In this document: piece by piece, positions 14,835-61,100 of the stretch | Layout of the letters: each line of letters begins with the position of its first letter | Position numbering within the stretch: the first letter of the stretch is position 1 | NCBI RefSeq assembly: GCF_003334385.1 | Contig: NZ_QOWN01000025.1 | Source: Escherichia coli | GTDB lineage: Bacteria; Pseudomonadota; Gammaproteobacteria; Enterobacterales; Enterobacteriaceae | DNA length: 64,000 nt | Direction: 5' to 3' (one strand) | Translations under genes and position numbers: made by a program | Notes under the pieces: model-generated | What the model saw: only the letters and a program-made list of their open reading frames with translations | Database searches by the model: none | Told to the model about the DNA's origin: nothing

Positions 14835-14853
14835 ATAACACTCCGTGGCTGGT

Positions 14854-15804: not shown

Positions 15805-16092
15805 AGGAAATACTCCTTGAAAAGTAAAGTGTTAGATGAGTGCGTTAATTCACACTTCTGAGAAATTTCGCTAAACGCATCAAAAAAGCATAGCAGACAG
15901 GCATGGTATTGCTGGATTAAGCAGGTAACATCAGTGTTATAGGATTATTACCAAAACATTATATTAATGGTGAGAGTTTGGACTTGCTCAAAGTCTGTAG
16001 ACTCCGGCAGGGTAATAATGTGCGCCACGTTGTGGGCAGGGGCTGTTGCCCACACACTTTATTTGTGAACGTTACGTGAAAGGAACAACCAA

Positions 16093-18372: not shown

Positions 18373-18419
18373 TTTTTTTTAACTCTCACGCTTACCCTGA
18401 ATATTCAGGGTAAGCAGTT

Positions 18420-18664
18420 TAGCTGCAATATATTAGTAAAGCTTATTACTGAGTTTGCGAATAATAAAAAAAAGCAGTCTATATAATATCTCGATATTAT
18501 TTTATTTATATTCATGCGTTGCATATGAAAGTTTATGCACCACAGCGAATATCTCTCCATTCTTAGTGATCTACCTCACCTTTTAAACGCGCTTGCCGAA
18601 TTTTGTTATTTACTCTGACGAAAAATTGTCACGATACACGAAAGTTTTTCACAGGCGGCGACTC
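18420..18664 (+). promoter_or_regulatory. AT-rich eut operon upstream region (main promoter expected here)
   Basis: About 245 bp AT-rich intergenic stretch immediately upstream of eutS; promoter location inferred from operon organisation. Confidence 0.4.
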
Positions 18665-19000
18665 ATGGATAAAGAACGCATCATTCAGGAATTTGTGCCC
18701 GGCAAACAGGTCACACTGGCGCATCTCATCGCGCATCCCGGTGAGGAACTGGCGAAGAAAATCGGCGTTCCGGATGCGGGCGCAATTGGCATTATGACGC
18801 TAACTCCCGGCGAAACGGCGATGATCGCCGGTGATTTAGCGCTGAAAGCCGCTGATGTGCATATCGGTTTTCTCGACCGATTCAGCGGTGCATTGGTGAT
18901 TTATGGCTCGGTGGGCGCAGTAGAAGAAGCGTTATCACAAACCGTCAGCGGTTTAGGTCGCTTATTAAATTATACGCTTTGTGAAATGACCAAAAGTTAA
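18665..19000 (+). CDS. eutS: BMC shell protein EutS
   Basis: 111 aa from [10 protein letters not shown]...; PduU/EutS-type BMC domain. Confidence 0.9.
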
Positions 19001-19012
19001 TACGAGGCATTC

Positions 19013-19492
19013 ATGAAACGAATTGCGTTTGTGGGTAGCGTCGGGGCAGGAAAAACAACGTTATTTAATGCGTTGCAGGGGAATTATACCCTCGCCAGAA
19101 AAACACAGGCCGTGGAATTTAATGATAAGGGCGATATTGATACGCCGGGTGAATATTTTAACCATCCCCGCTGGTATCACGCCTTAATTACCACGCTACA
19201 GGATGTAGACATGCTGATCTATGTCCATGGCGCAAATGACCCGGAAAGTCGGTTGCCTGCCGGGTTGCTGGATATTGGCGTCAGCAAACGGCAAATCGCC
19301 GTCATCAGTAAAACGGACATGCCAGATGCTGACGTCGCCGCAACGCGAAAGTTATTGCTTGAGACGGGTTTCGAAGAGCCGATTTTCGAGCTAAACAGCC
19401 ACGACCCGCAAAGCGTGCAGCAACTGGTGGATTATCTGGCATCTCTCACCAAACAGGAGGAAGCAGGTGAAAAAACTCATCACAGCGAATGA
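19013..19492 (+). CDS. eutP: ethanolamine utilization GTPase/kinase-like protein EutP
   Basis: 159 aa; P-loop GSVGAGKTT. Confidence 0.9.
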   Translation: MKRIAFVGSVGAGKTTLFNALQGNYTLARKTQAVEFNDKGDIDTPGEYFNHPRWYHALITTLQDVDMLIYVHGANDPESRLPAGLLDIGVSKRQIAVISKTDMPDADVAATRKLLLETGFEEPIFELNSHDPQSVQQLVDYLASLTKQEEAGEKTHHSE

Positions 19493-20168
19493 TATTCGTG
19501 AAGCACACGCGCGCGGCGAACAGGCAATGTCCGTGGTTCTGCGCGCCAGCATTATTACCCCGGAAGCCCGTGAAGTGGCGGATCTACTGGGTTTTACCAT
19601 CACCGAATGTGATGAATCGATCCCGGTAACGGCGTCCGTGCCCGCCAGCGTGCCAGCCGACAAAACCGAAAGCCAGCGCATCCGCGAAACCATCATTGCC
19701 CAGCTGCCGGAAGGCCAGTTTACCGAAAGCCTGGTCGCACAGCTGATGGAAAAAGTGATGAAGGAAAAACAGTCGCTGGAGCAGGGCGCAATGCAGCCGA
19801 GCTTCAAATCGGTGACCGGCAAAGGCGGCATCAAAGTGATTGATGGCAGTAGCGTCAAGTTTGGTCGTTTCGACGGCGCAGAGCCGCATTGCGTGGGCTT
19901 GACTGATCTTGTGACCGGAGACGACGGCAGCAGCATGGCCGCCGGTTTTATGCAGTGGGAGAACGCATTCTTCCCGTGGACCCTGAACTACGACGAAATC
20001 GACATGGTGCTGGAAGGGGAGCTGCATGTTCGCCACGAAGGCCAAACCATGATCGCCAAAGCAGGCGACGTGATGTTTATCCCGAAAGGCTCCAGCATCG
20101 AATTTGGTACGACATCCAGCGTGAAATTCCTGTATGTCGCCTGGCCGGCTAACTGGCAATCCCTATGA
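19467..20168 (+). CDS. eutQ: ethanolamine utilization cupin protein EutQ
   Basis: 233 aa; matches EutQ. Confidence 0.9.
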   Translation: MKKLITANDIREAHARGEQAMSVVLRASIITPEAREVADLLGFTITECDESIPVTASVPASVPADKTESQRIRETIIAQLPEGQFTESLVAQLMEKVMKEKQSLEQGAMQPSFKSVTGKGGIKVIDGSSVKFGRFDGAEPHCVGLTDLVTGDDGSSMAAGFMQWENAFFPWTLNYDEIDMVLEGELHVRHEGQTMIAKAGDVMFIPKGSSIEFGTTSSVKFLYVAWPANWQSL

Positions 20169-20968
20169 AAGATTTCATCACCGAAGCATGGCTAAGAGCG
20201 AACCATACGCTCAGCGAAGGCGCAGAGATCCATCTCCCTGCGGACAGTCGCCTGACGCCCTCTGCCCGGGAGTTGCTGGAAAGCCGCCATCTGCGCATCA
20301 AGTTTATTGACGAGCAGGGCCGCCTGTTTGTTGACGATGAACAGCAGCAGCCGCAGCCCGTTCATGGGCTGACCAGTAGCGATGAACATCCGCAGGCGTG
20401 CTGCGAACTGTGTCGCCAGCCGGTGGCAAAAAAGCCGGATACGCTGACTCACCTGTCGGCGGAAAAAATGGTCGCCAAAAGCGATCCGCGTCTGGGTTTT
20501 CGCGCGGTTCTCGACAGCACCATTGCGCTGGCAGTGTGGCTGCAAATTGAACTGGCGGAACCGTGGCAGCCGTGGCTGGCGGATATCCGTTCGCGTCTTG
20601 GCAACATTATGCGCGCCGATGCGCTGGGGGAACCGCTGGGCTGCCAGGCGATTGTCGGGCTTTCTGACGAAGATCTGCATCGGCTTTCTCATCAGCCGCT
20701 GCGCTATCTCGACCACGATCATCTGGTGCCGGAAGCCAGCCACGGGCGCGATGCTGCGTTGCTCAATCTGCTACGCACCAAAGTGCGGGAAACCGAAACC
20801 GTAGCGGCGCAGGTCTTTATCACCCGCAGCTTTGAAGTATTACGCCCGGACATTTTGCAGGCGCTGAACCGCCTTTCGAGCACGGTCTACGTGATGATGA
20901 TCCTGAGCGTAACGAAGCAGCCGCTAACGGTGAAGCAGATCCAACAACGACTGGGGGAAACGCAATGA
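20165..20968 (+). CDS. eutT: cob(I)alamin adenosyltransferase EutT
   Basis: 267 aa; ATGA overlap with eutQ; matches EutT. Confidence 0.9.
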
Positions 20969-21981
20969 TTATTGAACGTTGTCGTGAACTGGCGTTGCGA
21001 GCGCCCGCCAGAGTGGTTTTTCCGGATGCGTTAGACCAACGTGTGCTGAAAGCCGCGCAATATTTACATCAACAAGGTCTGGCAACGCCCATTCTGGTCG
21101 CCAATCCGTTTGAACTTCGTCAGTTTGCGCTCAGTCACGGCGTGGCGATGGACGGGCTACAGGTGATTGATCCGCATGGCAACCTCGCAATGCGGGAAGA
21201 ATTTGCTCATCGCTGGCTGGCCCGCGCGGGCGAAAAAACGCCGCCGGATGCGCTGGAAAAACTTACCGACCCTCTGATGTTCGCCGCAGCAATGGTCAGC
21301 GCCGGTAAAGCGGATGTCTGTATCGCGGGCAACCTCTCTTCCACGGCAAATGTGCTGCGTGCCGGATTACGCATTATCGGCTTGCAGCCAGGCTGTAAAA
21401 CGCTCTCTTCCATTTTCCTGATGTTGCCACAGTACAGCGGCCCGGCGTTGGGCTTTGCCGATTGCAGCGTGGTGCCACAGCCGACGGCGGCGCAGCTGGC
21501 GGATATCGCGCTTGCCAGTGCCGAAACCTGGCGCGCCATCACCGGAGAAGAGCCGCGCGTGGCGATGCTGTCGTTTTCCAGCAATGGTAGCGCCCGTCAC
21601 CCCTGTGTTGCTAACGTCCAGCAGGCGACAGAAATCGTCCGTGAGCGCGCACCAAAGCTGGTGGTGGATGGCGAGTTACAGTTTGACGCCGCCTTCGTGC
21701 CGGAAGTGGCGGCGCAAAAAGCGCCTGCCAGCCCGCTACAGGGCAAGGCCAATGTGATGGTTTTTCCGTCGCTGGAAGCCGGAAATATTGGTTACAAAAT
21801 CGCACAACGACTCGGCGGATATCGTGCCGTCGGGCCACTGATACAAGGACTTGCCGCGCCGATGCACGATCTCTCTCGTGGTTGTAGCGTGCAGGAAATT
21901 ATCGAGCTGGCGCTGGTGGCAGCTGTGCCGCGTCAGACAGAAGTGAACCGCGAAAGCAGTTTACAAACACTGGTTGAATGA
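20965..21981 (+). CDS. eutD: phosphotransacetylase EutD
   Basis: 338 aa; PTA family. Confidence 0.92.
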
Positions 21982-22019
21982 ACGGTCCCGTTCTGGACCC
22001 TGATAAAGAGGAAAGCACA

Positions 22020-22313
22020 ATGGAAGCATTAGGAATGATCGAAACCCGGGGCCTGGTTGCACTGATTGAGGCTTCTGACGCGATGGTGAAAGCTGCGCGC
22101 GTCAAGCTGGTTGGTGTTAAGCAGATTGGCGGCGGCCTGTGTACTGCCATGGTTCGTGGTGATGTTGCAGCCTGTAAAGCCGCGACCGATGCAGGTGCCG
22201 CAGCGGCACAGCGTATCGGCGAGCTGGTATCTGTACACGTTATCCCGCGTCCGCACGGCGACCTGGAAGAAGTCTTCCCGATCGGCCTGAAAGGCGATAG
22301 CAGCAACCTGTAA
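22020..22313 (+). CDS. eutM: BMC shell protein EutM
   Basis: 97 aa from [12 protein letters not shown]...; canonical BMC-H. Confidence 0.92.
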
Positions 22314-22419
22314 TCACCCTGTGTGACGTCGATTCGGGCGTCACGCTCTCTCCTTTTTCATTTTACCTTCTGCGGAGGGTAGGGGGAGCTTTTACCTGAA
22401 ATACGCCACGGAGGCGGGT

Positions 22420-22707
22420 ATGAAACTGGCAGTCGTCACTGGACAAATTGTTTGTACCGTACGCCATCACGGACTGGCGCATGACAAATTGCTGATGGTG
22501 GAAATGATTGATCCACAAGGTAATCCTGACGGGCAATGCGCCGTCGCCATCGACAATATTGGCGCGGGAACCGGGGAGTGGGTGTTACTGGTGAGTGGCA
22601 GTTCCGCCCGCCAGGCGCATAAAAGCGAAACGTCACCGGTCGATCTGTGCGTGATTGGCATTGTCGATGAGGTGGTGTCTGGCGGTCAGGTAATTTTCCA
22701 CAAATAA
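22420..22707 (+). CDS. eutN: BMC vertex protein EutN
   Basis: 95 aa; EutN/CcmL family. Confidence 0.92.
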   Translation: MKLAVVTGQIVCTVRHHGLAHDKLLMVEMIDPQGNPDGQCAVAIDNIGAGTGEWVLLVSGSSARQAHKSETSPVDLCVIGIVDEVVSGGQVIFHK

Positions 22708-22718
22708 GGCAGAACATC

Positions 22719-24122
22719 ATGAATCAACAGGATATTGAACAGGTGGTGAAAGCGGTACTGCTGAAAATGCAAAGCAGTGACACGCCGTCCGCCGCCGTTC
22801 ATGAGATGGGCGTTTTCGCGTCCCTGGATGACGCCGTTGCGGCAGCCAAAGTCGCCCAGCAAGGGTTAAAAAGCGTGGCAATGCGCCAGTTAGCCATTGC
22901 TGCCATTCGTGAAGCAGGCGAAAAACACGCCAGAGATTTAGCGGAACTTGCCGTCAGTGAAACCGGCATGGGGCGCGTTGAAGATAAATTTGCAAAAAAC
23001 GTCGCTCAGGCGCGCGGCACACCAGGCGTTGAGTGCCTCTCTCCGCAAGTGCTGACTGGCGACAACGGCCTGACCCTAATTGAAAACGCACCCTGGGGCG
23101 TGGTGGCTTCGGTGACGCCTTCCACTAACCCGGCGGCAACCGTAATTAACAACGCCATCAGCCTGATTGCCGCGGGCAACAGCGTCATTTTTGCCCCGCA
23201 TCCGGCGGCGAAAAAAGTCTCCCAGCGGGCGATTACGCTGCTCAACCAGGCGATTGTTGCCGCAGGTGGGCCGGAAAACTTACTGGTTACTGTGGCAAAT
23301 CCGGATATCGAAACCGCGCAACGCTTGTTCAAGTTTCCGGGTATCGGCCTGCTGGTGGTAACCGGCGGCGAAGCGGTAGTAGAAGCGGCGCGTAAACACA
23401 CCAATAAACGTCTGATTGCCGCAGGCGCTGGCAACCCGCCGGTAGTGGTGGATGAAACCGCCGACCTCGCCCGTGCCGCTCAGTCCATCGTCAAAGGCGC
23501 TTCTTTCGATAACAACATCATTTGTGCCGACGAAAAGGTACTGATTGTTGTTGATAGCGTAGCCGATGAACTGATGCGTCTGATGGAAGGCCAGCACGCG
23601 GTGAAACTGACCGCAGAACAGGCGCAGCAGCTGCAACCGGTGTTGCTGAAAAATATCGACGAGCGCGGAAAAGGCACCGTCAGCCGTGACTGGGTTGGTC
23701 GCGACGCAGGCAAAATCGCGGCGGCAATCGGCCTTAAAGTTCCGCAAGAAACGCGCCTGCTGTTTGTGGAAACCACCGCAGAACATCCGTTTGCCGTGAC
23801 TGAACTGATGATGCCGGTGTTGCCCGTCGTGCGCGTCGCCAACGTGGCGGATGCCATTGCGCTAGCGGTGAAACTGGAAGGCGGTTGCCACCACACGGCG
23901 GCAATGCACTCGCGCAACATCGAAAACATGAACCAGATGGCGAATGCTATTGATACCAGCATTTTCGTTAAGAACGGACCGTGCATTGCCGGGCTGGGGC
24001 TGGGCGGGGAAGGCTGGACCACCATGACCATCACCACGCCAACCGGTGAAGGGGTAACCAGCGCGCGTACGTTTGTCCGTCTGCGTCGCTGTGTATTAGT
24101 CGATGCGTTTCGCATTGTTTAA
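22719..24122 (+). CDS. eutE: acetaldehyde dehydrogenase (CoA-acylating) EutE
   Basis: 467 aa; aldehyde dehydrogenase family. Confidence 0.93.
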   Translation: MNQQDIEQVVKAVLLKMQSSDTPSAAVHEMGVFASLDDAVAAAKVAQQGLKSVAMRQLAIAAIREAGEKHARDLAELAVSETGMGRVEDKFAKNVAQARGTPGVECLSPQVLTGDNGLTLIENAPWGVVASVTPSTNPAATVINNAISLIAAGNSVIFAPHPAAKKVSQRAITLLNQAIVAAGGPENLLVTVANPDIETAQRLFKFPGIGLLVVTGGEAVVEAARKHTNKRLIAAGAGNPPVVVDETADLARAAQSIVKGASFDNNIICADEKVLIVVDSVADELMRLMEGQHAVKLTAEQAQQLQPVLLKNIDERGKGTVSRDWVGRDAGKIAAAIGLKVPQETRLLFVETTAEHPFAVTELMMPVLPVVRVANVADAIALAVKLEGGCHHTAAMHSRNIENMNQMANAIDTSIFVKNGPCIAGLGLGGEGWTTMTITTPTGEGVTSARTFVRLRRCVLVDAFRIV

Positions 24123-24132
24123 GGAGTAACAG

Positions 24133-24969
24133 ATGGCGCACGACGAACAATGGCTCACCCCACGTCTGCAAACGGCGGCAACGCTGTGTAACCAGACGCC
24201 CGCCGCGACGGAATCTCCGCTGTGGCTGGGGGTGGATCTGGGCACCTGCGATGTGGTGTCGATGGTTGTCGACCGCGACGGTCAGCCAGTGGCGGTATGC
24301 CTCGACTGGGCCGATGTGGTTCGCGACGGCATCGTCTGGGATTTCTTCGGCGCTGTCACCATTGTTCGTCGCCATCTCGACACGCTCGAGCAGCAATTCG
24401 GTCGTCGTTTTAGCCATGCGGCGACTTCATTTCCTCCAGGTACGGACCCGCGTATTTCCATCAACGTGCTGGAATCTGCCGGACTGGAAGTGAGCCATGT
24501 GCTGGATGAGCCAACCGCAGTTGCGGATCTGCTGCAACTGGACAACGCCGGTGTAGTGGATATCGGCGGCGGCACTACCGGCATTGCCATCGTGAAAAAG
24601 GGCAAGGTGACGTACTCGGCGGATGAAGCCACCGGCGGACATCACATCTCTCTGACTCTCGCCGGAAATCGCCGTATTTCGCTGGAAGAGGCGGAGCAGT
24701 ACAAGCGCGGTCACGGTGAAGAGATTTGGCCTGCGGTGAAACCGGTGTACGAAAAAATGGCGGACATTGTCGCCCGGCATATTGAAGGGCAGGGCATTAC
24801 TGATTTATGGCTGGCGGGCGGCTCTTGTATGCAACCGGGCGTGGCGGAACTGTTTCGCAAACAATTCCCGGCGTTACAGGTGCATTTACCGCAGCACAGT
24901 TTGTTTATGACCCCGCTGGCGATCGCCAGTAGTGGGCGAGAGAAAGCGGAGGGGCTATATGCAAAATGA
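24133..24969 (+). CDS. eutJ: chaperonin-like protein EutJ
   Basis: 278 aa; DnaK/actin-like ATPase fold. Confidence 0.9.
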   Translation: MAHDEQWLTPRLQTAATLCNQTPAATESPLWLGVDLGTCDVVSMVVDRDGQPVAVCLDWADVVRDGIVWDFFGAVTIVRRHLDTLEQQFGRRFSHAATSFPPGTDPRISINVLESAGLEVSHVLDEPTAVADLLQLDNAGVVDIGGGTTGIAIVKKGKVTYSADEATGGHHISLTLAGNRRISLEEAEQYKRGHGEEIWPAVKPVYEKMADIVARHIEGQGITDLWLAGGSCMQPGVAELFRKQFPALQVHLPQHSLFMTPLAIASSGREKAEGLYAK

Positions 24970-26146
24970 ATTGCAGACCGCGCTCTTTCAGGCGTTCGAT
25001 ACCCTGAATCTGCAACGGGTAAAAACATTTAGCGTTCCACCGGTGACGCTTTGCGGTCCGGGCTCGGTGAGCAGTTGCGGACAGCAAGCGCAAACGCGTG
25101 GGCTGAAACATCTGTTCGTGATGGCAGACAGCTTTTTGCATCAGGCAGGGATGACCGCCGGGCTGACGCGTAGCCTGACCGTTAAAGGTATCGCCATGAC
25201 GCTCTGGCCATGTCCGGTGGGCGAACCGTGCATTACCGACGTGTGTGCAGCCGTGGCGCAGTTGCGTGAGTCAGGCTGTGATGGGGTGATCGCGTTTGGC
25301 GGCGGCTCGGTGCTGGATGCGGCGAAAGCCGTGACGTTGCTGGTGACGAACCCGGATAGCACGCTGGCAGAGATGTCAGAAACCAGCGTTCTGCAACCGC
25401 GCTTGCCGCTGATTGCCATTCCAACTACCGCCGGAACCGGCTCTGAAACCACCAATGTAACGGTGATTATCGACGCGGTGAGCGGGCGCAAGCAGGTGTT
25501 AGCCCATGCCTCGCTGATGCCGGATGTGGCGATCCTCGACGCCGCATTGACCGAAGGTGTGCCGTCGCATGTCACGGCGATGACCGGCATTGATGCGTTA
25601 ACCCATGCCATTGAAGCATACAGCGCCCTGAACGCTACACCGTTTACCGACAGTCTGGCGATTGGTGCCATTGCGATGATTGGCAAATCGCTGCCGAAAG
25701 CGGTGGGCTACGGTCACGACCTTGCCGCGCGCGAGAGCATGTTGCTGGCTTCATGTATGGCGGGAATGGCGTTTTCCAGTGCGGGTCTTGGGTTGTGCCA
25801 CGCGATGGCGCATCAGCCGGGCGCGGCGCTGCATATTCCGCACGGTCTCGCGAACGCCATGTTGCTGCCAACGGTGATGGAATTTAACCGGATGGTTTGT
25901 CGTGAACGCTTTAGTCAGATTGGTCGGGCACTGCGAACTAAAAAATCCGACGATCGTGACGCTATTAACGCGGTAAGTGAGCTGATTGCGGAAGTTGGGA
26001 TTGGTAAACGACTGGGCGATGTTGGTGCGACATCTGCGCATTACGGCGCATGGGCGCAGGCCGCGCTGGAAGATATTTGTCTGCGCAGTAACCCGCGTAC
26101 CGCCAGCCTGGAGCAGATTGTCGGCCTGTACGCAGCGGCGCAATAA
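24959..26146 (+). CDS. eutG: iron-containing alcohol dehydrogenase EutG
   Basis: ORF 24932..26146; Met at 24959 gives 395 aa; Fe-ADH motifs. Confidence 0.9.
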   Translation: MQNELQTALFQAFDTLNLQRVKTFSVPPVTLCGPGSVSSCGQQAQTRGLKHLFVMADSFLHQAGMTAGLTRSLTVKGIAMTLWPCPVGEPCITDVCAAVAQLRESGCDGVIAFGGGSVLDAAKAVTLLVTNPDSTLAEMSETSVLQPRLPLIAIPTTAGTGSETTNVTVIIDAVSGRKQVLAHASLMPDVAILDAALTEGVPSHVTAMTGIDALTHAIEAYSALNATPFTDSLAIGAIAMIGKSLPKAVGYGHDLAARESMLLASCMAGMAFSSAGLGLCHAMAHQPGAALHIPHGLANAMLLPTVMEFNRMVCRERFSQIGRALRTKKSDDRDAINAVSELIAEVGIGKRLGDVGATSAHYGAWAQAALEDICLRSNPRTASLEQIVGLYAAAQ

Positions 26147-26148
26147 AT

Positions 26149-26335
<187 letters not shown>

Positions 26336-26362
26336 AATAACAACTAACAGGGAGTAAAGGCG

Positions 26363-27589
26363 ATGGGAATTAACGAAATCATCATGTACATCATGATGTT
26401 CTTTATGCTGATAGCTGCCGTAGACAGGATCCTGTCGCAGTTCGGCGGTTCTGCTCGTTTCCTCGGTAAGTTCGGTAAAAGTATCGAAGGATCAGGCGGT
26501 CAGTTCGAAGAAGGCTTTATGGCAATGGGCGCACTGGGCCTGGCGATGGTCGGTATGACCGCGCTGGCACCGGTACTGGCTCACGTTCTCGGGCCGGTAA
26601 TTATTCCGGTTTACGAAATGCTCGGCGCTAACCCATCGATGTTCGCCGGAACACTGCTGGCGTGCGATATGGGCGGCTTCTTCCTCGCCAAAGAGCTGGC
26701 GGGCGGCGACGTAGCCGCGTGGCTATACTCTGGGTTAATTCTCGGGTCGATGATGGGGCCAACGATTGTGTTTTCCATTCCGGTGGCGCTCGGCATTATC
26801 GAACCTTCTGACCGTCGTTATCTGGCGCTCGGCGTGCTGGCGGGCATTGTGACCATTCCGATTGGTTGTATCGCTGGTGGTCTGGTTGCTATGTACTCCG
26901 GTGTGCAGATCAACGGCCAGCCGGTGGAATTCACTTTCGCCCTGATCCTGATGAACATGATCCCGGTGATCATTGTTGCGATTCTGGTGGCGCTGGGGCT
27001 GAAATTCATCCCGGAAAAAATGATCAACGGCTTCCAGATCTTCGCCAAATTCCTCGTTGCATTGATCACCCTCGGTCTTGCCGCTGCGGTAGTGAAATTC
27101 CTGCTTGGCTGGGAACTGATCCCCGGTCTGGATCCTATCTTTATGGCCCCTGGCGATAAACCCGGTGAGGTGATGCGCGCCATTGAAGTTATCGGTTCTA
27201 TCTCCTGCGTTCTGTTAGGGGCGTATCCGATGGTGCTGCTGCTGACTCGCTGGTTTGAAAAACCGCTGATGAGCGTCGGTAAAGTACTGAATATGAACAA
27301 CATCGCGGCAGCCGGCATGGTGGCAACGCTTGCCAACAACATCCCGATGTTCGGCATGATGAAGCAGATGGATACCCGCGGCAAAGTCATCAACTGCGCC
27401 TTCGCCGTTTCCGCTGCTTTCGCCCTGGGCGACCACTTAGGCTTCGCCGCTGCCAACATGAACGCCATGATCTTCCCGATGATTGTCGGCAAGTTGATCG
27501 GCGGCGTAACGGCGATTGGCGTGGCGATGATGCTGGTGCCAAAAGAAGACGCGACCGCGACTAAAACCGAAGCGGAGGCACAATCGTGA
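26363..27589 (+). CDS. eutH: ethanolamine permease EutH
   Basis: 408 aa polytopic membrane protein; matches EutH. Confidence 0.92.
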   Translation: MGINEIIMYIMMFFMLIAAVDRILSQFGGSARFLGKFGKSIEGSGGQFEEGFMAMGALGLAMVGMTALAPVLAHVLGPVIIPVYEMLGANPSMFAGTLLACDMGGFFLAKELAGGDVAAWLYSGLILGSMMGPTIVFSIPVALGIIEPSDRRYLALGVLAGIVTIPIGCIAGGLVAMYSGVQINGQPVEFTFALILMNMIPVIIVAILVALGLKFIPEKMINGFQIFAKFLVALITLGLAAAVVKFLLGWELIPGLDPIFMAPGDKPGEVMRAIEVIGSISCVLLGAYPMVLLLTRWFEKPLMSVGKVLNMNNIAAAGMVATLANNIPMFGMMKQMDTRGKVINCAFAVSAAFALGDHLGFAAANMNAMIFPMIVGKLIGGVTAIGVAMMLVPKEDATATKTEAEAQS

Positions 27590-28989
27590 ACACTCGCCAG
27601 CTATTGAGCGTCGGTATCGATATCGGCACCACCACCACCCAGGTGATTTTCTCCCGGCTGGAGCTGGTTAACCGTGCGGCGGTGTCGCAGGTGCCGCGCT
27701 ACGAATTCATTAAACGCGAAATTAGCTGGCAAAGTCCGGTGTTCTTTACCCCTGTCGATAAACAGGGCGGTTTAAAAGAAGCGGAACTGAAAACCTTAAT
27801 ACTCGAGCAATATCATGCTGCGGGTATTGAGCCGGAAAGCGTTGATTCTGGTGCCATCATCATCACCGGTGAAAGCGCGAAAACCCGCAATGCTCGCCCG
27901 GCGGTGATGGCGCTCTCTCAGTCGCTGGGCGATTTTGTCGTTGCCAGCGCCGGGCCGCACCTCGAATCCGTGATCGCCGGTCACGGAGCCGGGGCACAAA
28001 CCCTTTCTGAACAACGGCTGTGTCGGGTACTGAATATCGACATCGGCGGTGGCACCGCGAACTACGCCCTGTTCGATGCCGGAAAAATCAGCGGCACTGC
28101 CTGCCTCAACGTCGGTGGTCGCCTGCTGGAAACCGACAGCCACGGGCGCGTGGTTTACGCTCATAAACCGGGGCAGATGATTGTGGATGAGTGCTTCGGT
28201 GCAGGCACCGACGCCCGTTCGCTGACCGGCGCGCAGCTGGTGCAGGTGACCCGGCGGATGGCAGAACTGATTGTCGAAGTGATTGACGGAACGCTCTCAC
28301 CGCTCGCGCAGGCATTGATGCAAACCGGTTTGCTGCCCGCAGGTGTTACGCCCGAAATCATTACGCTTTCTGGCGGCGTGGGCGAATGTTATCGCCACCA
28401 GCCCGCCGACCCGTTCTGTTTTGCCGATATTGGCCCGCTGCTGGCAACTGCGCTGCATGACCATCCGCGCCTGCGTGAGATGAACGTACAGTTTCCGGCG
28501 CAAACCGTGCGCGCCACGGTGATTGGCGCGGGCGCGCATACCCTTTCGCTCTCTGGCAGCACAATCTGGCTTGAGGGCGTACAACTGCCGCTGCGCAATT
28601 TGCCGGTGGCGATCCCGATTGATGAAACGGATCTGGTGGGGGCCTGGCAACAGGCGCTGATTCAGCTGGATCTTGATCCCAAAACTGACGCGTACGTGCT
28701 GGCGCTTCCCGCCTCGCTGCCTGTGCGTTACGCCGCGGTACTGACGGTCATCAACGCGTTGGTCGATTTCGTCGCGCGTTTTCCGAATCCGCATCCCCTG
28801 CTGGTGGTGGCCGGGCAGGACTTTGGTAAAGCTCTGGGCATGTTGTTGCGCCCACAGCTACAACAACTCCCGTTGGCAGTCATTGACGAAGTGATTGTCC
28901 GCGCGGGGGACTATATCGACATTGGTACGCCTCTTTTTGGCGGATCGGTTGTGCCGGTGACGGTGAAATCACTCGCATTTCCTTCCTGA
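27586..28989 (+). CDS. eutA: ethanolamine ammonia-lyase reactivase EutA
   Basis: 467 aa; matches EutA. Confidence 0.92.
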   Translation: MNTRQLLSVGIDIGTTTTQVIFSRLELVNRAAVSQVPRYEFIKREISWQSPVFFTPVDKQGGLKEAELKTLILEQYHAAGIEPESVDSGAIIITGESAKTRNARPAVMALSQSLGDFVVASAGPHLESVIAGHGAGAQTLSEQRLCRVLNIDIGGGTANYALFDAGKISGTACLNVGGRLLETDSHGRVVYAHKPGQMIVDECFGAGTDARSLTGAQLVQVTRRMAELIVEVIDGTLSPLAQALMQTGLLPAGVTPEIITLSGGVGECYRHQPADPFCFADIGPLLATALHDHPRLREMNVQFPAQTVRATVIGAGAHTLSLSGSTIWLEGVQLPLRNLPVAIPIDETDLVGAWQQALIQLDLDPKTDAYVLALPASLPVRYAAVLTVINALVDFVARFPNPHPLLVVAGQDFGKALGMLLRPQLQQLPLAVIDEVIVRAGDYIDIGTPLFGGSVVPVTVKSLAFPS

Positions 28990-29000
28990 GGGAACGACTT

Positions 29001-30363
29001 ATGAAACTAAAGACCACATTGTTCGGCAATGTATATCAGTTTAAGGATGTAAAAGAGGTGCTGGCTAAAGCCAACGAACTGCGTTCGGGGGATGTGCTGG
29101 CGGGCGTCGCAGCGGCAAGCTCACAGGAGCGCGTGGCGGCAAAGCAGGTGTTGTCGGAAATGACCGTAGCGGACATCCGCAATAATCCGGTGATTGCCTA
29201 TGAAGATGACTGCGTGACGCGGCTGATTCAGGACGATGTTAACGAAACGGCCTACAACCAGATTAAAAACTGGAGCATCAGCGAACTGCGTGAGTATGTG
29301 CTGAGCGATGAAACCAGCGTGGACGACATTGCCTTTACCCGCAAAGGGCTGACCTCGGAAGTGGTCGCGGCGGTAGCGAAGATTTGCTCCAACGCGGACC
29401 TGATCTACGGCGCGAAGAAAATGCCGGTAATCAAAAAGGCCAATACCACCATCGGTATTCCGGGCACCTTTAGCGCCCGTTTGCAGCCAAATGACACCCG
29501 TGACGACGTGCAAAGTATCGCCGCGCAAATCTACGAAGGGCTTTCCTTCGGGGTGGGCGATGCGGTGATCGGCGTTAACCCGGTGACTGACGACGTGGAA
29601 AACTTAAGCCGCGTGTTGGATACCATCTATGGCGTGATCGACAAATTCAACATCCCAACTCAGGGCTGTGTACTGGCGCACGTCACCACCCAGATCGAAG
29701 CGATCCGTCGTGGCGCACCGGGCGGGCTGATTTTCCAGAGTATCTGTGGCAGCGAAAAAGGGCTGAAAGAGTTTGGCGTGGAGCTGGCGATGCTCGACGA
29801 AGCGCGCGCAGTGGGCGCGGAGTTCAACCGTATCGCCGGGGGAAAACTGCCTCTACTTCGAAACCGGACAAGGCTCTGCGCTATCCGCTGGCGCTAACTT
29901 CGGCGCAGACCAGGTAACGATGGAAGCACGTAACTACGGGCTGGCGCGTCATTACGATCCGTTTATCGTCAACACCGTGGTCGGCTTTATTGGGCCGGAG
30001 TATCTCTACAACGACCGCCAGATTATCCGTGCTGGCTTAGAAGATCACTTTATGGGCAAGCTGAGCGGCATCTCTATGGGCTGTGACTGCTGTTATACCA
30101 ACCACGCTGACGCTGACCAGAACCTCAACGAAAACCTGATGATCCTGCTCGCCACCGCAGGCTGCAACTACATCATGGGGATGCCGCTGGGTGATGACAT
30201 CATGCTCAACTACCAGACCACCGCATTCCACGATACCGCCACTGTGCGTCAGTTACTCAACCTGCGCCCGTCACCGGAGTTTGAACGCTGGCTGGAAAGC
30301 ATGGGCATTATGGCAAACGGTCGCCTGACCAAACGGGCGGGCGATCCGTCACTGTTCTTCTGA
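29001..30363 (+). pseudogene. eutB: ethanolamine ammonia-lyase heavy chain EutB, interrupted by +1 frameshift (or homopolymer sequencing error)
   Basis: ORF 29001..29897 matches EutB residues 1 to about 281, then diverges after ...EFNRIAG; ORF 29773..30363 in the +1 frame matches the EutB C-terminus from ENCLYFETGQGS... to the end; the shift coincides with the G5 run at 29838..29842 where gcc ggg gaa aac is expected. Confidence 0.8.
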
Positions 30364-30383
30364 TGACGCGGAGATAACATATC

Positions 30384-31271
30384 ATGGATCAAAAACAGAT
30401 TGAAGAAATTGTACGCAGCGTGATGGCGTCAATGGGACAAGCGGCCCCCGCGCCGTCAGAAGCAAAGTGCGCCACCACCAACTGTGCGGCACCGGTGACC
30501 TCGGAAAGCTGTGCGCTGGATTTAGGTTCCGCTGAAGCAAAAGCGTGGATTGGTGTTGAAAATCCGCATCGCGCAGACGTATTAACAGAACTGCGCCGCA
30601 GCACCGTGGCCCGCGTTTGTACCGGTCGTGCCGGTCCGCGTCCACGTACGCAGGCGCTGCTGCGTTTCCTGGCCGATCACTCTCGTTCGAAAGATACCGT
30701 ACTGAAAGAAGTGCCGGAAGAGTGGGTGAAAGCGCAGGGCTTGCTGGAAGTACGCTCTGAAATTAGCGACAAAAATCTCTACCTGACTCGCCCGGATATG
30801 GGCCGCCGCCTGTGTGCAGAAGCTGTTGAAGCGCTGAAAGCGCAGTGTGTTGCCAATCCGGACGTACAGGTCGTTATTTCTGATGGCCTGTCAACTGATG
30901 CGATCACCGTGAACTACGAAGAGATCCTGCCACCGCTGATGGCGGGCCTGAAACAGGCCGGGCTGAAAGTCGGTACACCATTCTTTGTTCGTTATGGTCG
31001 CGTGAAGATTGAAGATCAGATCGGTGAGATCCTCGGCGCGAAAGTAGTGATCCTGCTGGTGGGCGAACGTCCGGGGTTGGGTCAGTCAGAAAGCCTCTCC
31101 TGCTACGCCGTTTACTCGCCGCGTATGGCGACCACCGTTGAGGCCGATCGCACCTGTATCTCTAACATTCACCAGGGCGGCACGCCGCCGGTTGAAGCCG
31201 CAGCCGTCATTGTGGATTTGGCGAAACGTATGCTGGAGCAGAAAGCATCCGGCATCAACATGACCCGATAA
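30384..31271 (+). CDS. eutC: ethanolamine ammonia-lyase light chain EutC
   Basis: 295 aa; matches EutC. Confidence 0.92.
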
Positions 31272-31280
31272 GGAGGCATC

Positions 31281-31940
31281 ATGCCAGCTTTAGATTTGAT
31301 TCGACCGTCTGTCACCGCTATGCGGGTGATTGCCTCCGTTAACGCCGATTTTGCGCGTGAACTGAAATTGCCGCCGCATATTCGTAGCCTCGGTCTGATT
31401 TCTGCCGACTCCGATGACGTCACCTACATTGCCGCTGATGAAGCGACCAAGCAGGCGATGGTGGAAGTGGTGTATGGCCGCTCGCTATATGCGGGCGCTG
31501 CACACGGCCCGTCACCGACTGCCGGTGAAGTGCTGATTATGCTTGGTGGGCCAAACCCGGCGGAAGTGCGTGCAGGTCTGGATGCGATGATTGCGCATAT
31601 TGAAAATGGCGCAGCTTTCCAGTGGGCTAATGACGCGCAAGATACGGCATTCCTGGCACATGTAGTTTCGCGTACCGGTTCTTATCTCTCATCAACCGCC
31701 GGGATCACGCTTGGCGATCCGATGGCGTATCTGGTGGCACCGCCGCTGGAAGCGACCTATGGCATTGATGCAGCCCTGAAGTCTGCCGACGTACAGCTGG
31801 CGACCTATGTCCCGCCACCGTCTGAAACCAACTACTCGGCAGCATTTTTAACCGGTAGCCAGGCAGCGTGTAAAGCAGCCTGTAACGCCTTTACCGATGC
31901 AGTGCTGGAAATCGCGCGTAATCCAATCCAGCGTGCGTAA
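31281..31940 (+). CDS. eutL: BMC shell protein EutL (tandem BMC domain)
   Basis: 219 aa; matches EutL. Confidence 0.92.
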
Positions 31941-31952
31941 CGGAGGTTGCCG

Positions 31953-32453
31953 ATGATCAATGCACTGGGATTGCTGGAAGTGGACGGCATGGTCGCCGCG
32001 ATAGATGCAGCGGATGCCATGCTCAAAGCAGCTAACGTTCGTCTGCTCAGTCACGAAGTGCTTGACCCTGGTCGCTTAACGCTGGTGGTGGAAGGCGATC
32101 TGGCGGCGTGTCGTGCGGCGCTGGACGCAGGTTGTGCTGCCGCGATGCGTACCGGGCGTGTCATCAGCCGCAAGGAGATCGGTCGGCCAGACGATGACAC
32201 CCAGTGGCTGGTTACTGGCTTTAACCGCCAGCCGAAGCAACCCGTAAGGGAACCCGACGCGCCAGTTATCGTCGCGGAATCTGCTGACGAGTTGTTGGCG
32301 CTGTTAACATCAGTACGTCAGGGAATGACGGCAGGAGAAGTGGCTGCCCACTTTGGCTGGCCGCTGGAAAAAGCCAGAAATGCGCTCGAACAGCTCTTTT
32401 CTGCCGGGACGTTACGTAAACGCAGTAGTCGTTATCGTCTCAAGCCCCATTAA
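31953..32453 (+). CDS. eutK: BMC shell protein EutK
   Basis: 166 aa from MINALGLLEV...; BMC domain plus C-terminal extension. Confidence 0.9.
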   Translation: MINALGLLEVDGMVAAIDAADAMLKAANVRLLSHEVLDPGRLTLVVEGDLAACRAALDAGCAAAMRTGRVISRKEIGRPDDDTQWLVTGFNRQPKQPVREPDAPVIVAESADELLALLTSVRQGMTAGEVAAHFGWPLEKARNALEQLFSAGTLRKRSSRYRLKPH

Positions 32454-32498
32454 CCTGTCGGAGGTGCCGGGTGTCCTACAACACCCGGCATTAACATC

Positions 32499-33551
32499 AT
32501 GAAAAAGACCCGTACAGCCAATTTGCACCATCTTTATCATGAACCCTTACCCGAAAACCTGAAGCTCACGCCGAAGGTCGAAGTGGATAATGTTCATCAA
32601 CGACAGACAACGGATGTCTATGAACATGCTTTAACGATTACCGCCTGGCAGCAGATTTACGATCAGCTGCATCCGGGCAAGTTTCATGGTGAATTTACGG
32701 AAATTCTACTCGATGATATTCAGGTTTTTCGTGAATACACCGGTCTGGCGCTGCGTCAGTCGTGCCTGGTCTGGCCGAACTCGTTCTGGTTTGGCATTCC
32801 GGCGACGCGCGGTGAGCAGGGATTTATCGGTTCGCAATGTCTGGGAAGCGCGGAAATCGCCACCCGCCCTGGTGGCACTGAATTTGAACTGAGCACGCCG
32901 GATGATTACACGATCCTGGGCGTGGTGCTTTCTGAAGATGTCATCACCCGGCAGGCTAACTTTTTGCATAACCCGGATCGGGTATTACATATGTTGCGTA
33001 ACCAGTCGGCGCTGGAAGTGAAAGAGCAGCATAAAGCCGCGCTGTGGGGCTTTGTCCAACAGGCGCTGGCGACGTTTTGCGAGAATCCGGAAAATCTCCA
33101 TCAGCCTGCAGTGCGAAAAGTGCTGGGGGATAATTTGCTAATGGCGATGGGGGCCATGCTGGAAGAAGCGCAACCAATGGTGACGGCGGAAAGCATCAGT
33201 CATCAGAGTTACCGTCGATTGCTTTCCCGCGCCCGTGAATATGTGCTGGAAAACATGTCCGAACCGGTGACGGTGCTGGATTTGTGTAATCAACTGCATG
33301 TCAGCCGCCGCACGCTACAAAACGCGTTTCACGCTATTTTAGGCATTGGCCCGAACGCGTGGCTGAAACGCATTCGCCTGAACGCCGTACGCCGCGAACT
33401 GATAAGTCCGTGGTCGCAAAGTATGACGGTAAAAGACGCCGCCATGCAGTGGGGATTCTGGCATCTGGGGCAATTTGCCACGGATTACCAGCAGCTGTTT
33501 TCCGAGAAGCCGTCACTGACGCTGCATCAGCGGATGCGGGAGTGGGGGTGA
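32499..33551 (+). CDS. eutR: AraC-family activator of the eut operon EutR
   Basis: 350 aa; C-terminal AraC HTH. Confidence 0.92.
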
Positions 33552-35968: not shown

Positions 35969-36404
35969 GTTTCATCCTGTCCATTATGATGCGCACGGTC
36001 GCCTGCGTTTACCCTTGCTCTTCTGGCTTGTGCTATTGCTTCAGGCGCGAACCTGGGTGCTGTTTGTCATTGCCGGTGCGTCGCGCGAGCAGGGTACTGC
36101 GCTGCTAAATCTGTTTTATCCCGATCACGATAATTTCTGGCTGGGGCTGATTCCTGGCATTCCGGCGGTGCTGGCGTTTTTGTTGAGCGGTCGGCGGGCT
36201 ACGTTTCCTCGCACCTGGCGTGTACTCTATTTTCTGTTGCTGTTGGCGCAGGTGGTTTTACTTTGCTGGCAACCGTGGCTGTGGCTGAACGGTGAATCCG
36301 TTAGCGGTATCGGTCTGGCGCTGGTAGTGGCGGATATTGTGGCGTTAATCTGGCTGCTGACCAATCGACGTTTACGCGCTTGTTTTAATGAAGTAAAAGA
36401 ATAA
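35955..36404 (+). CDS. yfeZ: inner membrane protein YfeZ
   Basis: About 149 aa hydrophobic protein; overlaps the ypeA 3' end. Confidence 0.85.
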
Positions 36405-36464
36405 CGGCACTTTTTGGTGAATTTGCACTCCAAGCAACGTTATTGAATAACCAAAGGAAGTGAC

Positions 36465-37040
36465 ATGAAATCGCTGCGTTTAATGTTATGCGCTATGCCA
36501 TTGATGCTGACCGGCTGTTCCACGATGTCGTCAGTTAACTGGTCTGCCGCTAACCCGTGGAACTGGTTTGGGTCGTCCACCAAAGTGAGCGAGCAGGGCG
36601 TGGGTGAATTAACGGCGTCCACACCACTGCAAGAACAAGCCATTGCCGATGCGCTTGATGGCGATTATCGCCTGCGCAGCGGAATGAAAACCGCGAACGG
36701 CAACGTGGTGCGCTTTTTTGAAGTGATGAAGGGCGACAACGTGGCGATGGTGATTAACGGCGATCAAGGCACGATCAGTCGCATTGACGTGCTGGATAGC
36801 GATATTCCTGCTGACACCGGTGTTAAAATCGGTACACCGTTTAGCGACCTTTACAGCAAAGCATTTGGCAATTGCCAAAAAGCTGATGGTGATGATAATC
36901 GTGCCGTCGAATGTAAAGCCGAAGGCAGTCAACATATTAGCTACCAGTTCAGCGGGGAATGGCGTGGTCCTGAAGGGTTAATGCCTTCGGACGATACCCT
37001 GAAAAACTGGAAAGTCAGTAAAATTATCTGGCGGCGTTAA
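36465..37040 (+). CDS. yfeY: lipoprotein YfeY
   Basis: 191 aa; lipobox LTGCS. Confidence 0.88.
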   Translation: MKSLRLMLCAMPLMLTGCSTMSSVNWSAANPWNWFGSSTKVSEQGVGELTASTPLQEQAIADALDGDYRLRSGMKTANGNVVRFFEVMKGDNVAMVINGDQGTISRIDVLDSDIPADTGVKIGTPFSDLYSKAFGNCQKADGDDNRAVECKAEGSQHISYQFSGEWRGPEGLMPSDDTLKNWKVSKIIWRR

Positions 37041-37051
37041 TTTGCGTCTGA

Positions 37052-38035
<984 letters not shown>

Positions 38036-38116
38036 GCGTTTCTGATTCATTGATTAAAGGCCAGGCAGTAACATTACTGACTGGCCTCAGATTGTTGACC
38101 AAGTGCGCGTTGTACA

Positions 38117-38216
38117 CGCCGGATGCGGCGTGAACGCCTTATCCGGCCTACGAAATCGTGCTAATTCAATATATTGTGGGCTCCACGTAGGCCTGATAAG
38201 CGTAGCGCATCAGGCA
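38117..38216. repeat. REP/BIME between yfeX and yfeW
   Basis: gccggatgcggcgtgaacgccttatccggcctac and ggcctgataagcgtagcgcatcaggc palindromes. Confidence 0.8.
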
Positions 38217-38274
38217 GTTTTGCGTTTGTCAGCACTCTCAGACCAGCCAGTAACATTACTGACTGGCCTTTTTA

Positions 38275-39576
38275 TTACTTCTGCTTTAACGCCGCATACA
38301 CCTGATCAACTACCCAACCATAAGTTGCAATCGGCAACTGACCGCTTTCGAACATATTGGGATTCTTTTGCGGATCGGCAACCGGCGAATGTGGCTTGTT
38401 GCTTAACATCACAATCGTCATATGATTCACCGGATCGATAACGGTCACCGTTCCGGTCCAGCCAGTGTGACCGTAGGTTTGCGGGCTTGCCAGCGTGCCA
38501 AACGTCGGCGTCATGGTGGCATTACCATTCACGCGCCAGCCGAGGCCAAAAGTGGCATCTTCCTTAGAGCTGGTGGTGAACATCTTCACCGTTTCCGCAT
38601 TGAACAGCTGCACATCACCATAGCCCCCGCCGTTCAGCATCGTTTGCATTAACACCGCAATATCGCCGGTATTGGAAAACAAACCTGCGTGCCCGGAAAC
38701 GCCGCCCATCGAATAAAAGGCTTTTTCATCGTGCACCTGACCCCAGAGAGTGGAGGTGCGGATATTCGGGAAATGGATCACGCCATCGCGGGTATTGCCG
38801 TTCAATTCCGTGGCGGCAATTTGTTGCGGTTTAAAGCCTTTCAGCAGCGGGTTAAATACCGTATGTGTCAGGCCGAGCGGGCGATAAATCGACTCTTCAA
38901 CATAGCGGTCAAGCGGCTGACCGGTAACCGACTCGACGATAAATCCAAGCAGCATATAATCGACATCGCTGTAGATATGTTTGCTGCCGGGCTGATATTC
39001 CAGCGGCGTGCGCTTGATCATCTCCAGCGTCTGGCCTTTATCCTGGGAATATAACGCGCCCGCGACCGCTTTATTCGGGTATTGCGGATCTGCCGGGAAA
39101 CCGCCGCTGTGATGCAGCAGGTCAGAAATCCGCAGGGTGTTTTTGCCTTTAATGGTGTCATTTGGACTATCGGCAAACCCCGGAATATATTTCGCAATCC
39201 GATCGTCAGGATGCAGTTTGCCTTCGCTCATCAGCTTTTGCAGGGCGAAGTTCGTGGCGTACATTTTGGTGTTTGAGGCCAGGTCATACAGCGTCCCGGT
39301 GGTGGCTTTGACAGGCTGTTCCATCAACACGCTGCCATCGTACTTTTTCGCCGCTCCCCAGGCTTTGCGATACACAATCTGATTATCTTTAATGATCAGC
39401 AGGTTTACGCTGGGATAACCGACATCAACTTGCTGGCTAATCCAGCGATCCATCTGGTTAAGCCGTTCGACGTTAAACCCTGCTTTCTCTGGCGAGCTTT
39501 CTGTCAGAACAGGGTATTTTGCGGCGCTGACGCTACAACTAACAGCCAGCAGAGAAAGATAGAGCATTGTCCGTTT
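38275..39576 (-). CDS. yfeW: penicillin-binding protein 4B (beta-lactamase-fold DD-peptidase) YfeW
   Basis: ORF 38275..39666; Met at 39576 gives about 433 aa with signal peptide; SxxK-type motif SNTK. Confidence 0.88.
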   Translation of the reverse strand, partial: KRTMLYLSLLAVSCSVSAAKYPVLTESSPEKAGFNVERLNQMDRWISQQVDVGYPSVNLLIIKDNQIVYRKAWGAAKKYDGSVLMEQPVKATTGTLYDLASNTKMYATNFALQKLMSEGKLHPDDRIAKYIPGFADSPNDTIKGKNTLRISDLLHHSGGFPADPQYPNKAVAGALYSQDKGQTLEMIKRTPLEYQPGSKHIYSDVDYMLLGFIVESVTGQPLDRYVEESIYRPLGLTHTVFNPLLKGFKPQQIAATELNGNTRDGVIHFPNIRTSTLWGQVHDEKAFYSMGGVSGHAGLFSNTGDIAVLMQTMLNGGGYGDVQLFNAETVKMFTTSSKEDATFGLGWRVNGNATMTPTFGTLASPQTYGHTGWTGTVTVIDPVNHMTIVMLSNKPHSPVADPQKNPNMFESGQLPIATYGWVVDQVYAALKQK

Positions 39577-39583
39577 CATGATA

Positions 39584-41008
<1,425 letters not shown>

Positions 41009-60824: not shown

Positions 60825-61100
60825 ATGACTTATTCTTTAAAACAATTAAAGGTTTTCGTCACAGTAGCGCAGGAGAAAAGTTTTAGTCGTGCAGGAGAGC
60901 GTATCGGCCTGAGCCAGTCGGCAGTGAGTCACAGTGTGAAGGAACTGGAAAATCATACTGGTGTTCGCCTGCTGGACAGAACCACGCGTGAAGTGGTGCT
61001 TACAGATGCAGGGCAGCAGCTGGCTTTGCGTCTTGAGCGACTGCTGGATGAACTGAACAGCACGTTGCGCGATACCGGGCGTATGGGGCAACGATTATGA
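60825..61100 (+). pseudogene. yfeR: LysR-family regulator YfeR, truncated to the N-terminal HTH domain (about 91 codons)
   Basis: [42 protein letters not shown]... is a LysR HTH; the ORF stops at a TGA overlapping the xapB ATG; no co-inducer-binding domain follows. Confidence 0.8.

What the first reader, a model, noticed from the sequence alone, without database searches (positions are those of the whole stretch)
28990..29000. eutA and eutB are adjacent: unoccupied CPZ-55 prophage site
In K-12 MG1655 the cryptic prophage CPZ-55 (intZ through yffS, about 6.8 kb) sits between eutA and eutB. Here eutA stops at 28989 and eutB starts at 29001 with an 11-bp spacer and no integrase or phage remnant. 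So this is either not K-12 wild type or a prophage-cured derivative, and the eut operon is physically contiguous (ancestral state).
Basis: partly seen in the sequence, partly recalled or inferred. Interest (0 to 1): 0.3.

Follow-up and report, generated by a model that had tools for sequence, protein, structure and literature searches.

The report
Empty CPZ-55 site; eutB frameshifted

Summary
eutA ends at 28989, eutB starts at 29001, and the spacer is the 11 bases GGGAACGACTT. The window contains no CPZ-55 DNA and no IntZ homologue.

The junction is the exact empty attachment site: one copy of the 8-bp core CTTCCTGA that flanks CPZ-55 in MG1655. This is the ordinary state:
- 4965 of 5426 complete E. 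coli genomes are contiguous here.
- A Citrobacter-type locus has the same layout.
- Full-length CPZ-55 occurs in only 213 genomes; those listed are mostly named K-12 laboratory strains.

The window is not a cured K-12. It is 99.98% identical to MG1655, but it lacks all six K-12-specific SNP alleles that the cured K-12 strain C600 keeps. It groups instead with natural phylogroup A strains such as SCU-104.

A G5 run at 29838-29842 (G4 elsewhere) shifts the frame after residue 280 of 453 and gives a stop at 29895-29897. The allele is real and inherited: the exact 298-aa product occurs on at least 105 public contigs. The four related contigs read in full, and SCU-104, each carry a further eut nonsense mutation (EutN Q65*, EutA Q302* or EutR E42*). 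So the operon is contiguous but predicted non-functional.

This is ordinary and of low interest.

The parts
18665..33551 (+). eut operon, eutS-P-Q-T-D-M-N-E-J-G-H-A-B-C-L-K-R, contiguous. Sixteen genes are intact and eutB is broken.
   Evidence: The 16 other genes give ORFs of the expected lengths with a single terminal stop. Gene order and names come from the SCU-104 and MG1655 annotation.
27586..28989 (+). eutA (ethanolamine ammonia-lyase reactivase), 467 aa, intact.
   Evidence: The stretch 27470-28989, covering the 3' 1404 nt of eutA, is 100% identical to MG1655.
28982..28989 (+). Single copy of the 8-bp core CTTCCTGA. It overlaps the eutA stop codon and is duplicated at both ends of CPZ-55 in MG1655, so here it marks the empty attB.
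   Evidence: MG1655 junctions...GCATTTCCTTCCTGA|ATGCGG (left) and ...CGATTCTTCCTGA|GGGAACGACTT-ATG (right). The window reads ...GCATTTCCTTCCTGA|GGGAACGACTT-ATG. The 8-bp duplication TCAGGAAG is described in PMC6379469.
28990..29000 (+). 11-bp eutA-eutB spacer GGGAACGACTT, which holds the eutB ribosome-binding region.
   Evidence: The spacer is identical in a Citrobacter-type locus.
29001..30363 (+). eutB pseudogene (large subunit of ethanolamine ammonia-lyase). It is 1363 nt, one more than the normal 1362.
   Evidence: PGAP annotates the same allele in SCU-104 as 'frameshifted'.
29838..29842 (+). G5 run that is G4 in MG1655, C600 and, over this 61-base stretch, in every complete genome except SCU-104. 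This +1 insertion is the frameshift.
29895..29897 (+). Premature TAA ending the 298-aa product. Residues 1-280 are identical to EutB of PDB entry 3ABO, followed by 18 non-native residues.
29842..30363 (+). Out-of-frame remainder of eutB. It encodes residues 281-453 (ENCLYFETGQ...) in the +1 frame.

Best explanation
This is the natural, never-occupied attachment site (attB) used by CPZ-55 and related IntZ-type integrative elements, in a non-K-12 phylogroup A E. coli lineage.

The IntZ tyrosine integrase of such elements recombines at the 8-bp core CTTCCTGA that overlaps the eutA stop codon. Integration would duplicate this core and separate eutA from eutB. Here there is one core, an 11-bp spacer and then eutB, which is the ancestral enterobacterial layout.

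Independently of the prophage site, the lineage carries a +1 insertion in a G run of eutB. The catalytic large subunit of ethanolamine ammonia-lyase is cut after residue 280 of 453. The operon is therefore contiguous, but ethanolamine use is predicted to be lost. The relatives examined have since acquired further nonsense mutations in other eut genes, which is operon decay.

Shown here: the anatomy of the site, its frequency, the non-K-12 ancestry, and the reality and inheritance of the frameshift. Inferred: 'never occupied' rather than 'excised', the loss of function, and relaxed selection.
For: - **Site anatomy.** The junction equals the left flank of attL plus the right flank of attR of MG1655, with a single core.
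- **No phage DNA.** The window has no CPZ-55 or IntZ similarity and is collinear with MG1655.
- **Frequency.** 4965 of 5426 complete genomes are contiguous over the 2-kb query. Full-length CPZ-55 at 99% identity or more occurs in 212 genomes; of those listed, most are named K-12 laboratory strains. About 200 further genomes have only related intZ elements. A published survey found the site occupied in 8% of 638 strains and described the same 8-bp duplication (PMC6379469). The site has been called a prophage insertion hot spot (PMC6652756).
- **Outgroup.** A locus carrying a protein named Citrobacter amalonaticus EutB is 83% identical overall, yet has eutA, an 11-bp spacer and eutB, with 71 identical bases around the junction.
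- **Not K-12.** At six sites MG1655 and C600 share one allele while the window shares the other with SCU-104. For the three of these sites tested, many natural strains also appear to carry the window's allele.
- **Frameshift.** The run is G5 against G4. Residues 1-280 are identical to 3ABO chain A. The exact 298-aa product is present on at least 105 contigs in NCBI, ENA, JGI and Logan, including KTE14 and an NCTC genome.
- **Further decay in relatives.** EutN Q65*, EutA Q302* and EutR E42* occur in different relatives.
- **Functional context.** An uninterrupted eut operon is needed for growth on ethanolamine as nitrogen source (PMC11334477).
Against: - Precise excision leaves no scar, so the sequence alone cannot exclude a past occupation. 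The region is only about 0.02% diverged from K-12, and K-12 derivatives do lose CPZ-55 precisely (PMC4444293; C600).
- Loss of function of the truncated EutB is inferred, not measured.
- Only the 64-kb window was available, so CPZ-55-like DNA elsewhere in the source genome is not excluded.
Confidence: 0.88

Rival explanations
1. The site was once occupied by CPZ-55 or a relative and was vacated by precise IntZ-mediated excision, as in several K-12 laboratory derivatives.
For: ER2796, XL1-Blue and C600 are K-12 strains with a scarless empty site. The window is 99.98% identical to MG1655 in the flanks.
Against: The window lacks all six K-12-specific alleles, which C600 retains. SCU-104 and the four other relatives carrying the G5 allele all have the empty site. 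So do the phylogroup A strains whose 2-kb junction region is identical to the window's apart from the extra G. Among the genomes listed, full-length CPZ-55 is found mostly in named K-12 laboratory strains. An outgroup genus has the same empty layout.
Confidence: 0.07
2. The empty site, the eutB frameshift, or both are assembly or sequencing artefacts: a collapsed prophage or a homopolymer miscall.
For: The frameshift lies in a homopolymer. Among 5235 complete genomes with a match, only SCU-104 matches the 61 bases around the run without a gap.
Against: The same junction and the same G5 allele occur in independent assemblies from different projects and sources: SCU-104, KTE14, an NCTC genome, ENA assemblies and Logan assemblies, on at least 105 contigs. 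These assemblies differ from the window by 4 to 16 SNPs, so they are not copies of it. A Logan contig is 100% identical to window 50825-63584.
Confidence: 0.02
3. The eutB frameshift is bypassed. tRNA-Gly slips by +1 on G-GGG-G (GCC GGG GGA to GCC GGG-G GAA), which would restore the wild-type sequence AGENCLYF and allow some active enzyme to be made.
For: The sequence shows directly that a +1 slip of the P-site tRNA within the G5 run restores the exact native frame and residues.
Against: Nothing in the sequence read around the run suggests a stimulator: no stop codon follows it and no structure was looked for. In the relatives examined, further nonsense mutations have accumulated in eutN, eutA and eutR, as expected if the operon is already useless.
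Confidence: 0.03

Closest known systems
E. coli K-12 MG1655 eut locus interrupted by cryptic prophage CPZ-55 (b2442-b2450)
   Same: The flanking genes are the same at 99.98% identity, with the same 8-bp core and the same 11-bp spacer next to eutB.
   Different: MG1655 has 6790 bp of prophage between two copies of the core. The window has none. MG1655 eutB is intact (G4). Six SNP alleles are specific to K-12.
K-12 derivatives that lost CPZ-55 by precise excision (C600, ER2796, XL1-Blue; engineered BW25113 eut+)
   Same: The junction sequence is identical and scarless (PMC4444293, PMC11148124, PMC11334477).
   Different: C600, the one compared here, keeps the K-12 SNP alleles and an intact eutB. 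The window does not.
E. coli SCU-104 (NZ_CP053284.1; human commensal, phylogroup A, ST8125)
   Same: It has the empty site and the same G5 eutB frameshift, annotated 'frameshifted' by PGAP. It shares six SNPs with the window against K-12.
   Different: SCU-104 also has EutN Q65*, 10 further private SNPs (16 differences from the window in all), and no 2.6-kb yfeR-xapA deletion.
Canonical 17-gene EUT1 operon of Salmonella and Citrobacter
   Same: The gene order is the same around the junction, with eutA and eutB separated by 11 bp. The comparison with Salmonella rests on published statements (PMC11334477), not on a test here.
   Different: The window's eutB is a pseudogene.

Membership tests
Unoccupied attB of CPZ-55 / IntZ-type integrative elements | eutA stop codon and eutB start codon adjacent, with no intervening element | tested here: met
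   Stop at 28987-28989, ATG at 29001, 11-bp spacer.
Unoccupied attB of CPZ-55 / IntZ-type integrative elements | One copy of the 8-bp core, flanked by the host-side arms of attL and attR | tested here: met
   Alignment of the window with both MG1655 junctions.
Unoccupied attB of CPZ-55 / IntZ-type integrative elements | No integrase or prophage remnant nearby | tested here: met
   blastn with CPZ-55 and tblastn with IntZ against the window gave no hits. The window is collinear with MG1655.
Unoccupied attB of CPZ-55 / IntZ-type integrative elements | The site is competent for IntZ-mediated integration | not testable with these tools
   This needs an integration assay.
E. coli K-12 lineage (prophage-cured derivative) | Carries the K-12-specific alleles in the flanking 61 kb | tested here: not met
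   At 16281, 19384, 36387, 37670, 37715 and 42602, MG1655 and C600 share one allele and the window has the other.
Functional EUT1 ethanolamine-utilisation operon | All 17 genes intact, including the ethanolamine ammonia-lyase subunits EutB and EutC | tested here: not met
   Sixteen genes are intact. eutB is frameshifted after codon 280.
Functional EUT1 ethanolamine-utilisation operon | Growth on ethanolamine plus B12 as nitrogen source | not testable with these tools
   This needs a growth assay.

The most novel reading that the evidence does not exclude
The repeated secondary knock-outs of eut genes in relatives that carry the eutB frameshift are adaptive rather than neutral decay.

The mutations are EutN Q65*, EutA Q302* and EutR E42*: three nonsense changes among eight point substitutions inside eut genes. 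About 2.9% nonsense would be expected by chance, giving a binomial P of about 0.001. This figure carries an ascertainment caveat, because the look-up tool shows places that differ in their proteins.

The proposed reason is as follows. With the lyase dead, ethanolamine is not consumed, so the EutR-dependent operon would stay induced in the gut. Shutting down this wasteful expression of the microcompartment genes would then be selected.
Probability: 0.15. Interest if true: 0.4.

Novelty: already known. Interest (0 to 1): 0.15.

Why it matters
It matters little. The empty site only shows that the K-12 reference is the exception: most E. coli have an uninterrupted eut operon, as has already been published.

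The practical lesson is for annotation. 'Operon contiguous' is not the same as 'pathway present'. This lineage should be scored as unable to use ethanolamine because of the eutB frameshift. That is relevant to work on ethanolamine as a gut nutrient for commensal and pathogenic E. coli.

The stepwise decay of the operon in the related genomes is a small, clean example of pseudogene accumulation after a first inactivating hit.

Tried and rejected
- **Is the window SCU-104?** No. There are 16 SNPs and a 2.6-kb indel between them.
- **Is it a K-12 derivative?** No. This was rejected on the SNP alleles.
- **Does any complete RefSeq genome match the window exactly?** None has the 61092 deletion junction. 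None matches 36300-40100 perfectly; the best is 99.9%. The source strain was therefore not identified in that collection, although a Logan contig from ERR1948963 matches 12.76 kb exactly.
- **Repeats or RNA families at the junction?** Nothing relevant was found.
- **Literature on the eutB frameshift or on SCU-104.** The searches found no discussion of the allele. One paper gave SCU-104's phylogroup and sequence type.
- **Not used.** The metagenome and genome pattern scans and the structure-prediction tools were left unused, because the exact-protein look-ups already answered the question.

Full report
**Observation.** The sequence reads ...GCATTTCCTTCCTGA GGGAACGACTT ATGAAACTAAAG.... The eutA ORF is 27586..28989 (467 aa) and the next ORF starts with ATG at 29001. 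The window aligns with MG1655 as three collinear blocks: 1-28989, 28982-61092 and 61090-64000. The only DNA missing at the eutA/eutB boundary is the 6790-bp segment annotated 'cryptic prophage CPZ-55' (intZ, yffL to yffS) in NC_000913.3. blastn with CPZ-55 and tblastn with IntZ find nothing anywhere in the 64 kb.

**Anatomy of the site.** In window orientation, the MG1655 left junction is ...GCATTTCCTTCCTGA|ATGCGGTATTCG... and the right junction is ...CATCGATTCTTCCTGA|GGGAACGACTT-ATG. The eight bases CTTCCTGA, whose last three are the eutA stop codon, are present at both ends of the prophage. The window has one copy (28982-28989), joined to the host-side arms of both junctions. This is the exact empty attB. 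It matches the published description of an 8-bp duplication (TCAGGAAG on the other strand) right after the eutA stop codon (PMC6379469).

**How usual is the empty site?** A 2-kb query across the junction finds one contiguous place covering at least 80% of the query in 4965 of 5426 complete E. coli genomes.
- CPZ-55 itself, at 80% coverage or more, is present in 213 genomes. In the rows listed, most are named K-12 laboratory strains.
- About 200 further genomes have only an intZ-like gene of 80-90% identity. One example is 14EC033, where a different element lies next to eutB.
- Published work reports 8% occupancy among 638 strains (PMC6379469) and calls this a prophage insertion hot spot (PMC6652756).
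- A locus that encodes a protein named Citrobacter amalonaticus EutB is 83% identical to the window overall. It still has eutA, an 11-bp spacer and eutB, with 71 identical bases around the junction.

**K-12 or not?** The flanks are strikingly close to MG1655: 2 mismatches in 28,989 bases on the left, and 9 mismatches plus one gap in 32,111 on the right. Several K-12 derivatives are known to have lost CPZ-55 by precise excision: ER2796 (PMC4444293), XL1-Blue (PMC11148124) and C600. 'Cured K-12' was therefore a serious possibility.

A three-way comparison with MG1655 and the human commensal SCU-104 shows six SNPs and one indel where MG1655 stands alone and the window agrees with SCU-104. C600 carries the MG1655 allele at all six sites. 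Many natural phylogroup A strains (H10407, NCTC86, ML35 and others) match window 36300-40100 at 99.9%. That is the score expected if only the window's two private SNPs differ, so they appear to share the window's allele at the three of these sites lying in that stretch. SCU-104 is phylogroup A, ST8125 (PMC11251922). The window therefore comes from a natural phylogroup A strain that is very close to K-12 in this region but is not K-12. Since all of its sampled relatives have the empty site, 'never occupied' is the economical reading. Precise excision leaves no scar and cannot be formally excluded.

The ORF from 29001 ends at 29897 (298 aa), and a second ORF in another frame runs to 30363. The region is 1363 nt long instead of 1362.
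- The cause is a run of five G at 29838-29842, where MG1655 and C600 have four.
- Residues 1-280 are identical to the E. coli EutB crystal-structure sequence (3ABO chain A). The product then leaves the frame and stops at TAA 29895-29897.
- Residues 281-453 are encoded in the +1 frame.
- From my own knowledge of the ethanolamine ammonia-lyase structure, active-site residues such as Glu287 and Asp362 lie beyond the break. This was not tested here.
- The other 16 eut genes are intact.

**Is the frameshift real?** Among the 5235 complete genomes with a match, only SCU-104 matches the 61 bases around the run without a gap. PGAP marks its eutB 'frameshifted'. However, the exact 298-aa product exists in public collections on at least 105 contigs from NCBI, ENA, JGI and Logan. 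These include E. coli KTE14 and an NCTC genome. The assemblies differ from the window by 4 to 16 SNPs, so they are independent. The allele is therefore inherited within a natural lineage and is not a homopolymer miscall.

**Decay of the operon in relatives.** Over window 19001-39897 the window has no private change and carries only the eutB lesion. Its relatives have added further lesions:
- EutN Q65* in SCU-104 and in L010; the tool reports 15 further places similar to L010.
- EutA Q302* in L012, with 5 similar places, and in L013.
- EutR E42* in L011.

That makes three nonsense changes among eight point substitutions inside eut genes, leaving out a six-SNP patch in eutG of L011 that looks like a single event such as recombination. 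About 2.9% nonsense would be expected from all possible single-base changes, giving a binomial P of about 0.001. The figure is rough. The look-up tool shows places that differ in their proteins, which favours coding changes. The pattern fits relaxed selection after the first hit. Selection to switch off a useless but inducible operon is a possible, untested alternative.

[quoted passage not shown] BW25113, which carries CPZ-55, cannot grow, and scarless removal of the prophage restores growth (PMC11334477; PMC7617246). Here the operon is uninterrupted, but the catalytic subunit is truncated. The predicted phenotype is therefore still Eut-negative, for a different reason than in K-12. A +1 slip of tRNA-Gly within G-GGG-G would restore the native sequence exactly. 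No stimulatory signal was seen near the run, and the secondary nonsense mutations argue that the operon is no longer maintained.

**Verdict.** The finding is real and correctly interpreted, but ordinary. An empty CPZ-55 site is the norm in E. coli and is already described. The added value of this check is the eutB frameshift, and the evidence that it marks a natural lineage whose eut operon is eroding.

Noticed in passing
window 61092/61093 (ORF 60825..61100; xapB ATG 61097): A 2.6-kb deletion relative to MG1655 and SCU-104 removes roughly the last two-thirds of yfeR, all of yfeN and all of xapA. It leaves a 91-aa YfeR' ORF whose end overlaps the xapB start. No complete RefSeq E. coli genome has this junction. 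A Logan contig (ERR1948963_36, seen in 7 samples) is 100% identical to window 50825-63584.
   Followed up: partly
L010-L013 and SCU-104 (L001/L003), corresponding to window 22612, 28489 and 32622: Relatives sharing the eutB frameshift carry independent extra nonsense mutations: EutN Q65*, EutA Q302* and EutR E42*. The window has none of them.
   Followed up: partly
L008 (E. coli K-12 AG100, NZ_LN832404.1) locus 1091-1180: This K-12 strain without CPZ-55 has a tandem duplication of about 90 bp at the empty site. It repeats the eutA 3' end, the spacer and the first bases of eutB, and is annotated as a 24-aa 'EutA' fragment. It could be real or an assembly artefact.
   Followed up: no
L007 (E. 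coli C600) locus 24099-25151: C600 has regained a contiguous eutA-eutB junction, but PGAP marks its eutR as a pseudogene with an internal stop.
   Followed up: no
L009 (E. coli 14EC033) locus 12177-21051: A different element with an intZ-like integrase (about 86% identical at the DNA level) lies next to eutB. It is followed by IS1, and eutS to eutA are missing, so maeB comes next.
   Followed up: no
window 1351, 3528, 13008, 13921, 15478, 16012, 22612, 34994, 39378, 48474, 53097 (against SCU-104): All 11 SNPs private to SCU-104 are transitions, and 10 of them are G:C to A:T relative to the window and MG1655. This is a one-sided mutation spectrum.
   Followed up: no
window 19384 (eutP codon 124): K-12 (MG1655, C600) has Met where the window, SCU-104 and the four related contigs have Ile. 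This is a K-12-specific amino-acid change in EutP.
   Followed up: no
window 1413-1489 and 26201-26282: Rfam naRNA4 (REP-type) matches. The second lies in the eutG-eutH intergenic region. tRNA and RtT matches lie at 63598-63908.
   Followed up: no
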